A stretch of DNA of 12,923 bases from a virus (Duplodnaviria; Heunggongvirae; Uroviricota; Caudoviricetes): positions 1 through 12,923 of the IMG/VR virus record IMGVR_UViG_3300029079_000072; one strand, written 5' to 3'. Made by a program: the position numbers and the translations under genes. The notes under the pieces were generated by a model. The model was given only the letters and a program-made list of their open reading frames with translations, made no database searches and was not told the DNA's origin. Below, piece after piece: positions 12,544 to 12,923 of the stretch. The first letter of the stretch is position 1. Each line of letters starts with the position of its first letter.

Positions 12544-12612
12544 CTGTTTTCTCTGCTGGCGCAGCAGGTGTCAGGTGTTCAGGCTGACGTGCGAATTGTA
12601 AACCAGAATGCC

Positions 12613-12651
12613 AGAAAAAAACAAAACCCGCCGAACCGGGTTAAGTGCGGG
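12613..12651 (-). terminator. Intrinsic terminator downstream of hok (minus strand)
   Basis: Minus strand CCCGC-ACTTAACCCGGTTCG-GCGGG stem-loop followed by TTTTGTTTTTTT, about 60 nt after the hok stop. Confidence 0.55.
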
Positions 12652-12710
12652 TGCGTTGAGGATGCCTGACACATCAGAGGTGGCGAGGGATTTCTCCCCC
12701 GCCAGGTCTC

Positions 12711-12866
12711 TTACTCCTCAGGTTCGTAAGCTGTGAAGACAGCGACCTCCGTCTGGCCGGTTCGGAGTCGTACCTCGCAGAGGTCTTTCCTCGTTACCAG
12801 TGCCGTCACTATGACGGTTAAACAGATGACGATCAGGGCGATTAACATCGCCTTTTGCTGCTTCAT
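12711..12866 (-). CDS. hokD: Hok-family type I toxin (51 aa)
   Basis: MKQQKAMLIALIVICLTVIVTALVTRKDLCEVRLRTGQTEVAVFTAYEPEE matches HokD/RelF as recalled except I to L at one position. ATG at 12864..12866 is preceded by GGGGAAG. An in-frame extension reaches ATG 12921..12923 at the window edge. Confidence 0.88.
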   Translation of the reverse strand: MKQQKAMLIALIVICLTVIVTALVTRKDLCEVRLRTGQTEVAVFTAYEPEE

Positions 12867-12923
12867 AGCCTGCTTCCCCTTGCCTTTCGGCACGTAAGAG
12901 GCTAACCTACATTTGTGAGACAT

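What the first reader, a model, noticed from the sequence alone, without database searches (positions are those of the whole stretch)
12544..12923. Hok-family toxin at the window edge; antisense regulator presumably just outside
The 51-aa Hok ORF is intact and followed by a strong terminator. Hok toxins are normally repressed post-transcriptionally by an antisense Sok RNA that overlaps the mRNA leader, and by an overlapping mok frame. Only 57 nt upstream of hok are in the window, so those elements cannot be assessed. The in-frame ATG at 12921..12923 would give a 70-aa N-terminally extended product, which is atypical.
Basis: partly seen in the sequence, partly recalled or inferred. Interest (0 to 1): 0.35.

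Follow-up and report, generated by a model that had tools for sequence, protein, structure and literature searches.

The report
Intact prophage hok/mok/sok toxin–antitoxin locus
The window edge cuts through an ordinary, complete hok/mok/sok type I toxin–antitoxin module of a decayed Qin-like lambdoid prophage of E. coli, the intact form of the truncated hokD (relF) gene of K-12 and a 92%-identical relative of the experimentally studied hokW-sokW locus.

Summary
A 51-aa Hok ORF lies at 12711-12866(-) (Pfam HOK_GEF, E=1.6e-22), with 57 nt upstream and a terminator at 12615-12642.

1. The "atypical" ATG at 12921-12923 is the mok start codon. Here mok is in frame with hok and gives 70 aa, as in the annotated mokW of phage 933W and in chromosomal hokC loci.
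2. The sok promoter (TTGCCT-17-TAACCT, 12880-12908, + strand) and the first 9 nt of the inferred 71-nt Sok RNA lie inside the window. Only the other 62 nt lie outside.
3. The fbi element (12649-12661) is inside the window.

Gut-metagenome contigs that carry the window's unique deletion junction at 100% identity supply the missing sequence. It contains a hok promoter, the conserved mRNA 5' end (tac) and the sok region (Rfam RF01794, 120.5 bits against a threshold of 59). The full-length mRNA folds with tac-fbi pairing. The 3'-trimmed form refolds its 5' end locally.

The locus is therefore not decayed, unlike K-12 hokD, where relBE replaces everything from about 17 nt upstream of hok. At least 80% of the complete 500-nt locus is found in 3985 of 5426 complete E. 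coli genomes. Already known; low interest.

The parts
12711..12866 (-). hok toxin CDS (51 aa, HokD/HokW type; Leu34 where K-12 HokD and HokW have Ile)
   Evidence: ORF list and translation. Pfam HOK_GEF E=1.6e-22. Annotated hokD in 100%-identical genomes. Protein comparison.
12711..12923 (-). mok reading frame (70 aa), in frame with hok and sharing its stop codon. The start codon is the last three bases of the window.
   Evidence: The ATG aligns with the mok ATG of the R1-type hok locus and with the annotated mokW of 933W (213 nt, 70 aa). A conserved GAGG Shine-Dalgarno sequence lies 8 nt upstream, just outside the window. The distance to the hok ATG is 57 nt in 6 of 8 loci and 58 nt in 2. Annotated as a 70-aa 'phage maintenance protein' in Sakai Sp4.
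12876..12881 (-). hok Shine-Dalgarno sequence, AAGGGG here against AAGGAG in all seven relatives compared (variant base at 12877)
   Evidence: Alignment, coordinates and the SNP against L013.
12880..12908 (+). sok promoter: -35 TTGCCT (12880-12885), 17-nt spacer, -10 TAACCT (12903-12908)
   Evidence: Coordinates. The position is homologous to the promoter region upstream of the annotated sokW 5' end in 933W, and the sequence under the -10 is identical there. It falls below the generic sigma-70 scan threshold, so it is assigned by homology and not by consensus strength. The sokW promoter was inactivated by -10 mutations in PMC8621323.
12915..12923 (+). First 9 nt (GTGAGACAT) of the Sok antisense RNA. 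The remaining 62 nt lie beyond the window end.
   Evidence: The annotated sokW 5' end lies 9 nt into mokW, and this was transferred by alignment. The 71-nt RNA (L001 6009->5939) folds as a 14-nt single-stranded 5' tail plus a long hairpin plus a U tail, z=-4.9.
12861..12923 (-). 3' third of the hok mRNA leader, covering the start of mok, the downstream arm of the Sok-target hairpin (including the GCCUC inferred to be dcb) and the hok SD hairpin
   Evidence: 5'-truncated Rfam RF01794 match, model positions 96-157, 27.7 bits, E=2.4e-4. It is part of the full 120.5-bit match in L001.
12725..12728 (-). TACG: the Tyr47 codon plus G, a TadA A-to-I editing motif (Tyr to Cys) reported for hokD mRNA
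   Evidence: Sequence. TACGAA is invariant in all 8 aligned loci. Editing of K-12 hokD at 6% is stated in PMC12214031. Not tested here.
12681..12704 (-). Stable 3'-UTR hairpin (UGGCGGGGGAGAAAUCCCUCGCCA), the likely stop for 3' exonucleolytic trimming and so the 3' end of the active truncated mRNA
   Evidence: Predicted in both folds. The role is inferred from the R1 hok mechanism as described in PMC9841398.
12649..12661 (-). fbi (fold-back inhibitory element) CCUCAACGCACCC, complementary to the mRNA 5' end GGGUGCUUGAGG (tac, outside the window)
   Evidence: The MFE fold of the 419-nt full-length mRNA pairs nt 1-12 with this element, z=-6.8. 97.9% of cells are paired across 8 loci against 28-54% when slid, with one compensatory change.
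12615..12642 (-). Intrinsic terminator of the hok mRNA
   Evidence: Scan result. The hairpin is predicted.

Best explanation
The region is about three quarters of a complete hok/mok/sok type I toxin-antitoxin locus of the hokD/hokW type. It sits in the nin region of a decayed Qin-like lambdoid prophage of E. coli.

Shown from sequence:
- Outside the window, at L001 5853-5881, a promoter (TTGGCG-17-TAGAAT) precedes an mRNA of about 420 nt that starts with GGGUGCUUGAGG.
- This mRNA carries mok (70 aa, in frame with hok), hok (51 aa), a stable 3' hairpin, fbi and a terminator.
- On the opposite strand, a promoter inside the window (12880-12908) would drive a 71-nt Sok RNA from 12915. Its single-stranded 5' tail is antisense to the mok start codon and the spacer between the Shine-Dalgarno sequence and the ATG.

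Inferred from the R1 paradigm and from hokW-sokW:
- The full-length mRNA is locked inert by 5'-3' tac-fbi pairing.
- Slow 3' trimming removes fbi, and the 5' end refolds onto AAGCCCC (ucb).
- The mok translation initiation region then becomes available both to ribosomes and to Sok.
- While Sok is made, it pairs with the mRNA, blocks mok translation and therefore hok translation, and the duplex is cut by RNase III.
- When sok transcription stops, through loss of the DNA or prophage induction, the unstable Sok decays. The stable processed mRNA is then translated and Hok depolarises the inner membrane.
For: - Toxin: Pfam HOK_GEF E=1.6e-22.
- The window is 100% identical over 11653-12923 to many E. 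coli chromosomes annotated hokD.
- The off-window sequence is recovered from contigs that carry the window's unique chimeric 239-aa ORF. L015-L017 are 100% identical over all overlap, and their upstream 250 nt are identical to L001.
- Rfam RF01794 matches L001 5888-6063 at 120.5 bits (threshold 59), E=1.2e-28. The window alone gives a truncated 27.7-bit match.
- The hok promoter is found at L001 5853-5881.
- The full-length fold shows tac-fbi pairing, z=-6.8. The 3'-trimmed RNA refolds its 5' end into the Rfam consensus hairpin, z=-5.3.
- tac-fbi is paired in 97.9% of cells in 8 loci.
- The Sok fold has a 14-nt tail plus a terminator hairpin.
- The locus is 92.3% identical to 933W, where mokW, hokW and sokW are annotated with the same geometry.
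- hokW-sokW was shown to be a working toxin-antitoxin pair (PMC8621323).
- The mechanism is taken from PMC9841398.
Against: - Nothing here shows expression or toxicity of this allele.
- The sok promoter is a poor consensus match (4/6 and 3/6) and is not picked up by the generic scan.
- The hok Shine-Dalgarno sequence carries a G for A change unique among the 8 loci compared.
- Covariation support for tac-fbi is thin: 1 compensatory pair, and 49 of 500 shuffles reach the observed value.
- Chromosomal hok loci were reported not to mediate post-segregational killing, as cited in the preprint 10.1101/2025.08.07.668861.
- The window's own off-edge bases are inferred from identical contigs and were not read.
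Confidence: 0.9

Rival explanations
1. A decayed, orphan hok gene like K-12 hokD (relF). In that form the toxin ORF and 3' UTR survive, but mok, sok, tac and the hok promoter have been replaced by relBE, so no antisense control exists.
For: The protein differs from K-12 HokD by one residue. K-12-type genomes match only from about 17 nt upstream of hok. One metagenome contig (L013) with the same downstream junction does have relBE-hokD. The host prophage is heavily deleted.
Against: The window's own 57 upstream nt already diverge from the K-12 form. They contain the mok ATG, the leader homology and the sok promoter. Contigs 100% identical to the window carry the full leader, with an Rfam match of 120.5 bits.
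Confidence: 0.02
2. The locus is structurally complete but physiologically silent. All elements are present, but the locus neither kills on loss nor affects the prophage. It persists by hitch-hiking and recombination among lambdoid prophages.
For: Chromosomal hokA, hokB and hokC loci were reported unable to mediate post-segregational killing or to respond to rifampicin, as cited in the preprint 10.1101/2025.08.07.668861. The hok SD is weakened to AAGGGG in this allele. The prophage lacks Q, so late-gene-linked roles are moot.
Against: Every regulatory element is conserved down to the base-pairing level across loci 77-95% identical. At least 80% of the locus is retained in 3985 of 5426 genomes. 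The 92%-identical hokW-sokW is active and has a phenotype (PMC8621323).
Confidence: 0.25
3. The 70-aa ORF is the real toxin gene, an N-terminally extended Hok, rather than a regulatory leader frame. Sok would then control toxin synthesis directly.
For: mok is in frame, so any ribosome starting at 12923 must make a protein containing all of Hok. The in-frame arrangement is kept in 6 of 8 loci, including two with compensating indels. Some genomes annotate only the 70-aa product.
Against: The hok ATG and its SD are conserved in both in-frame and out-of-frame loci. A 1-nt indel puts mok out of frame in a closely related plasmid locus and in R1 with no other change of architecture. The 51-aa HokW alone is toxic (PMC8621323). 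In R1 it is the translation of mok, not its product, that matters (PMC9841398).
Confidence: 0.1

Closest known systems
hokW/mokW/sokW of Stx2 phages 933W and Sp5 (VT2-Sakai)
   Same: 92.3% nucleotide identity over 418 nt. Hok is 51 aa and the in-frame Mok is 70 aa. The Sok 5' end lies 9 nt into mok. The sequence under the sok -10 and the tac and fbi sequences are identical. Both are prophage-borne.
   Different: HokW differs at the C-terminus (VDYESEK against TAYEPEE) and has Ile34. In 933W the locus sits near the right end of the genome next to a ygiW-like gene, not in the nin region. Homology ends just after fbi, so the terminator differs. This allele has AAGGGG instead of AAGGAG at the hok SD.
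hokD (relF) of E. coli K-12 Qin prophage
   Same: The toxin differs by one residue (L34I). The 3' UTR, fbi and terminator are the same type, and hok lies upstream of a DUF968 (ydfU-type) gene in both, although K-12 has rem plus a further ORF where the window has a single 90-aa ORF. L001's prophage also carries dicB and ydfD, as I recall for Qin.
   Different: K-12 has relBE directly upstream, and homology starts only about 17 nt before the hok ATG. There is no mok start, Sok target, tac or hok promoter. The K-12 locus is regarded as inactivated by rearrangement (PMC12214031). The window locus is the intact form.
hok/mok/sok of plasmid R1 (the paradigm)
   Same: The order of elements is the same: promoter, tac, ucb, mok SD (GAGG), mok ATG in the context CUAUG, sok promoter antisense within mok, hok SD, hok, 3' hairpin, fbi, terminator. 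The tac-fbi helix is conserved with one compensatory U-A to C-G change.
   Different: The Hok proteins are clearly divergent (HokW, which is near-identical to this Hok, is 44% identical to R1 Hok). mok is out of frame in R1 (58 nt against 57 nt spacing). The leader hairpins differ in length. R1 is plasmid-borne with proven post-segregational killing.
hokC (gef)/mokC chromosomal locus
   Same: About 77% nucleotide identity. The in-frame Mok is 69 aa, and the mRNA 5' end and fbi are the same.
   Different: It is a core-chromosome locus next to dnaJ, not in a prophage. It lacks the 16-nt palindromic insertion in the leader/Sok hairpin.

Membership tests
[quoted passage not shown] | Small hydrophobic Hok/Gef toxin ORF of about 50 aa | tested here: met
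   Pfam PF01848 E=1.6e-22, 79.3 bits against a cut-off of 22. 51 aa, with one substitution relative to K-12 HokD.
[quoted passage not shown] | An overlapping mok reading frame that starts upstream of hok and has its own Shine-Dalgarno sequence | tested here: met
   The ATG at 12921-12923 aligns with the R1 and mokW mok ATGs. GAGG lies 8 nt upstream. The ORF is 70 aa and in frame.
[quoted passage not shown] | A cis-encoded antisense Sok RNA gene overlapping the mok translation initiation region, with its own promoter and terminator hairpin | tested here: met
   Rfam RF01794 at 120.5 bits (threshold 59) in the extension, and a truncated 27.7-bit match in the window. Homologous to the annotated sokW. 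The predicted RNA has a 14-nt tail, a hairpin and a U tail. The promoter is assigned by homology only and fails the generic consensus scan.
[quoted passage not shown] | Long-range 5'-3' (tac-fbi) pairing that closes the full-length mRNA | tested here: met
   The MFE of the 419-nt RNA pairs nt 1-12 with window 12649-12661, z=-6.8. 97.9% of cells are paired in 8 loci against 28-54% for slid controls. There is only 1 compensatory pair, so covariation is weak.
[quoted passage not shown] | An alternative local pairing of the 5' end (tac-ucb) once the 3' end is removed | tested here: met
   The fold of nt 1-359 pairs GGGUGCUU with AAGCCCC, as in the Rfam consensus structure. The 3' processing itself cannot be tested here.
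[quoted passage not shown] | Hok is toxic, and Sok neutralises it post-transcriptionally (RNase III-assisted) | not testable with these tools
   Shown experimentally only for relatives: hokW-sokW (PMC8621323) and R1 (PMC9841398).
K-12-type truncated hokD (relBEF arrangement) | relE lies directly upstream, with the hok leader, mok and sok absent | tested here: not met
   Window bases 12881-12923 are hok-leader sequence, not relE-proximal sequence. Identical contigs have a QueH-family gene and then the full leader upstream.

The most novel reading that the evidence does not exclude
In this clade mok is in frame with hok, so every mok translation event produces a 70-aa Hok with a basic 19-residue N-terminal extension. 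The evidence does not exclude that this longer protein is a second, functionally distinct toxin isoform, for example with different membrane insertion or potency. In that case Sok would gate toxin synthesis directly rather than through translational coupling. The 57-nt spacing is kept in two loci despite compensating indels, which hints at selection, but the sample is only 8 loci.
Probability: 0.12. Interest if true: 0.35.

Novelty: already known. Interest (0 to 1): 0.1.

Why it matters
It matters little beyond correct annotation. It shows that the widely annotated prophage "hokD" of non-K-12 E. coli is a complete hok/mok/sok module rather than the truncated K-12 form. RefSeq annotation lists only the toxin CDS and omits mok and sok. 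The 70-aa ORF should be read as mok. For anyone studying prophage-borne type I toxin-antitoxin systems (prophage maintenance, help with lysis on induction), this nin-region allele is a natural variant of hokW-sokW that survives in a heavily deleted prophage.

Tried and rejected
1. I searched all complete E. coli genomes for the source of the window. None holds the whole window (best 90%, strain DP051, which lacks the hok end at that place), so the extension could not be read from one complete genome with the same junction. This was solved by looking up the chimeric 239-aa DUF968 ORF.
2. The generic sigma-70 scan of the window end found no promoter. The sok promoter therefore rests on homology, not consensus.
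3. The covariation test of tac-fbi on 8 loci gave high pairing but only one compensatory pair, and 49 of 500 shuffles reach the observed score. That is not statistically convincing alone, and more divergent family members (hokA, hokB, hokE, srnB, pndA) were not fetched.
4. The Klebsiella plasmid hok locus L011 was dropped from the RNA alignment because its leader is replaced next to an IS481-family transposase gene.
5. Weak Rfam hits (ceN48, Virus_CITE_8, sR30, Yfr1) are far below threshold and were dismissed as chance.
6. The 90-aa downstream ORF has no Pfam or NCBIfam match and was not pursued.
7. The large protein-homology, structure-prediction and collection-scan tools were not used, because the identification was already unambiguous.
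8. Pedersen & Gerdes 1999 could not be read in the library. Its conclusions are cited only through PMC12214031 and the 2026 preprint.

Full report
**Observation.** On the minus strand, 12866-12711 encodes a 51-aa protein, MKQQKAMLIALIVICLTVIVTALVTRKDLCEVRLRTGQTEVAVFTAYEPEE. It matches Pfam HOK_GEF at E=1.6e-22. Fifty-seven bases separate its ATG from the window end. The last three bases of the window (12921-12923) are an in-frame ATG that gives a 70-aa ORF. A terminator lies at 12615-12642: a 6-bp stem with 4 G-C pairs, followed by TTTGTTTTTTT.

**Where the window comes from.**
- Bases 11653-12923 are 100% identical to many E. coli chromosomes, for example O104:H4 2011C-3493. There the gene is annotated hokD and lies in the nin region of a lambdoid prophage. 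The gene order is repressor/cro-like, YdaT, replication genes, DUF977, QueH-family gene, hokD, a 90-aa ORF, DUF968, RusA, Q. That prophage also carries dicB and ydfD, so it is Qin-like.
- Below 11653 the window departs from that arrangement. It continues into lysozyme, Rz, Nu1, a J fragment, Lom and tail-fibre genes. The window therefore comes from a heavily deleted prophage in which the DUF968 gene is cut and fused to the lysis region, giving a chimeric 239-aa ORF at 11550-12269.
- No complete E. coli genome in the collection has this exact junction next to hok.

**Reading beyond the window edge.**
- I looked up the chimeric 239-aa ORF by exact sequence. Eleven metagenome contigs carry it.
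- L015, L016 and L017 are 100% identical to the window over all overlapping bases (up to 5374 nt). Their 250 nt upstream of the mok ATG are identical to L001.
- The off-window sequence is thus known with high confidence, and L001 coordinates are used for it (window x = L001 18924 - x).
- In addition, 446 records match the complete 500-nt locus at 99% identity or more, against 451 for the in-window 1024 nt.

**Anatomy of the whole locus.** Outside the window:
- A promoter, TTGGCG-17-TAGAAT, lies at L001 5853-5881.
- The conserved hok mRNA 5' end, GGGUGCUUGAGG, starts at L001 5888.
- Rfam family RF01794 (sok; the model covers the hok leader on the sense strand) matches L001 5888-6063 at 120.5 bits against a threshold of 59, E=1.2e-28.
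- The mok Shine-Dalgarno sequence GAGG lies 8 nt before the ATG.

Inside the window:
- mok (12923-12711) and the hok SD AAGGGG (12881-12876).
- hok (12866-12711).
- A stable 3'-UTR hairpin (12704-12681).
- The fbi element CCUCAACGCACCC (12661-12649).
- The terminator (12642-12615).

On the opposite (+) strand of the window:
- TTGCCT (12880-12885), a 17-nt spacer, then TAACCT (12903-12908), then a G at 12915.
- By alignment this G is the 5' end of the sokW RNA annotated in phage 933W, which lies 9 nt into mokW.
- The predicted 71-nt Sok (L001 6009->5939) folds into a 14-nt single-stranded 5' tail, antisense to the mok ATG and its upstream spacer. A long hairpin and a U tail follow (z=-4.9).
- Only 9 of its 71 nt are in the window.
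- The window alone still gives a 5'-truncated Rfam match at 12861-12923 (27.7 bits, E=2.4e-4).

**The 70-aa ORF.**
- The ATG at 12921-12923 aligns with the mok ATG of the R1-type hok locus and with mokW of 933W. MokW is annotated as 213 nt (70 aa), in frame with the 51-aa hokW and sharing its stop codon.
- Among eight loci, the distance from the mok ATG to the hok ATG is 57 nt (in frame) in six: the window type, Sakai Sp4, 933W, chromosomal hokC, PPompW and RM9245. It is 58 nt (out of frame) in two: the R1 type and a plasmid hokD-like locus.
- The ORF is therefore the normal mok frame of this clade, not an atypical extension.
- Several genomes annotate only the 70-aa product.

**RNA switch.**
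- The 419-nt full-length mRNA has an MFE structure in which nt 1-12 pair with fbi near the 3' end (-170.8 kcal/mol, z=-6.8).
- When the 3' 60 nt are removed, the 5' end refolds onto AAGCCCC (nt 53-60). This reproduces the 5' hairpin of the Rfam consensus (z=-5.3).
- This is the tac-fbi to tac-ucb switch described for R1 hok (PMC9841398).
- Across eight loci the tac-fbi helix is paired in 97.9% of cells, against 28-54% for slid controls. There is one compensatory change (U-A here, C-G in R1).
- Diversity in the set is too low for a significant covariation score: 49 of 500 shuffles reach the observed value.

**Mechanism.** The steps below are inferred from relatives and not shown here.
1. The full-length mRNA is inert.
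2. 3' trimming up to the stable hairpin removes fbi.
3. Refolding exposes the mok initiation region.
4. Sok pairs there, blocks mok translation and the coupled hok translation, and the duplex is cleaved by RNase III.
5. When Sok synthesis stops, the stable mRNA is translated and Hok damages the inner membrane.

For the 92.3%-identical hokW-sokW locus, four things were shown experimentally (PMC8621323): toxicity of HokW, neutralisation by sokW expressed from its own promoter, partial dependence on RNase III and Hfq, and loss of sokW with HokW production on mitomycin C induction.

**Comparison with the known.**
- The locus is the intact counterpart of K-12 hokD (relF). In K-12-type genomes, homology begins only about 17 nt upstream of the hok ATG and relBE lies directly upstream.
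- This agrees with the literature view that hokD was inactivated by rearrangement (PMC12214031).
- At least 80% of the 500-nt complete locus is found in 3985 of 5426 complete E. coli genomes. It also occurs in Stx phages and P1-like plasmids.
- Enrichment of hok in prophages has been described (preprint 10.1101/2025.08.07.668861).

**Allele-specific details.**
- Leu34 replaces Ile or Val.
- A G at 12877 turns the hok SD from AAGGAG into AAGGGG. This is unique among the eight loci compared.

**Verdict.** This is a textbook hok/mok/sok module cut by the window edge. It is already known and of low interest. What remains untested is whether this allele is expressed and active, and whether the in-frame 70-aa product has a role of its own.

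Noticed in passing
window 11550-12269 (junction at 11652/11653): This is a deletion junction. The DUF968 (ydfU-like) gene is cut after about 205 codons and fused to sequence upstream of the phage lysozyme gene, giving a chimeric 239-aa ORF. RusA, Q, a DNA methylase and three tRNA genes present in the intact prophage (L001) are missing. The exact chimeric protein occurs on 11 metagenome contigs read; at least some are human-gut samples.
   Followed up: partly
L013 2806-4720 (metagenome contig ERZ1741937 NODE_207): The same DUF968 deletion junction is found with K-12-type relBE and truncated hokD upstream, 99.9% identical to K-12. Against the window there are SNPs at 12877, 12767 and 12663, then none until 11461. 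This suggests recombination within or next to hok between Qin-like prophages that carry either relBE or the intact hok leader.
   Followed up: partly
window ~7818-7896 (nu1 7896-8405; J fragment 5476-7818): There is a second internal deletion of the prophage. The terminase small-subunit gene is followed almost directly by the C-terminal part of the tail-tip protein J, which is annotated as a pseudogene missing its N-terminus in strain DP051. All head genes and most tail genes are gone.
   Followed up: no
window 1090-1288 (-): There is a full-length match to Rfam RF02111 'IS009' (225.5 bits against a threshold of 117). It lies inside the tail-fibre assembly gene ORF at 1047-1631, so it is likely a coding-sequence-derived Rfam family rather than an independent sRNA here.
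   Followed up: no
window 12725-12728 (-): TACG at the Tyr47 codon of hok is a TadA A-to-I editing motif. TACGAA is invariant in all 8 hok loci aligned, including the R1 type. Tyr-to-Cys editing is reported for K-12 hokD mRNA at 6% (PMC12214031).
   Followed up: partly
L001 ~5959-5974 (outside the window, in the hok leader and Sok hairpin): A 16-nt palindromic insertion (gcguccugcaagacgc) relative to the Rfam sok consensus adds an apical stem to the Sok terminator hairpin and to the matching leader hairpin. It is present in the hokD/hokW-type loci and absent from hokC, PPompW and the R1 type.
   Followed up: no
window 12490-12669 (+): A 59-aa ORF antisense to the hok terminator and fbi is annotated as a hypothetical protein (WP_001112740.1) in RefSeq genomes. 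It overlaps the start of the 90-aa ORF on the other strand. It is probably a spurious call.
   Followed up: no
window 12271-12543 (-): A 90-aa ORF lies directly downstream of hok and is conserved with it in many prophages (annotated hypothetical). It occupies the position of rem and the neighbouring ORF in K-12 Qin. It has no Pfam or NCBIfam match.
   Followed up: partly
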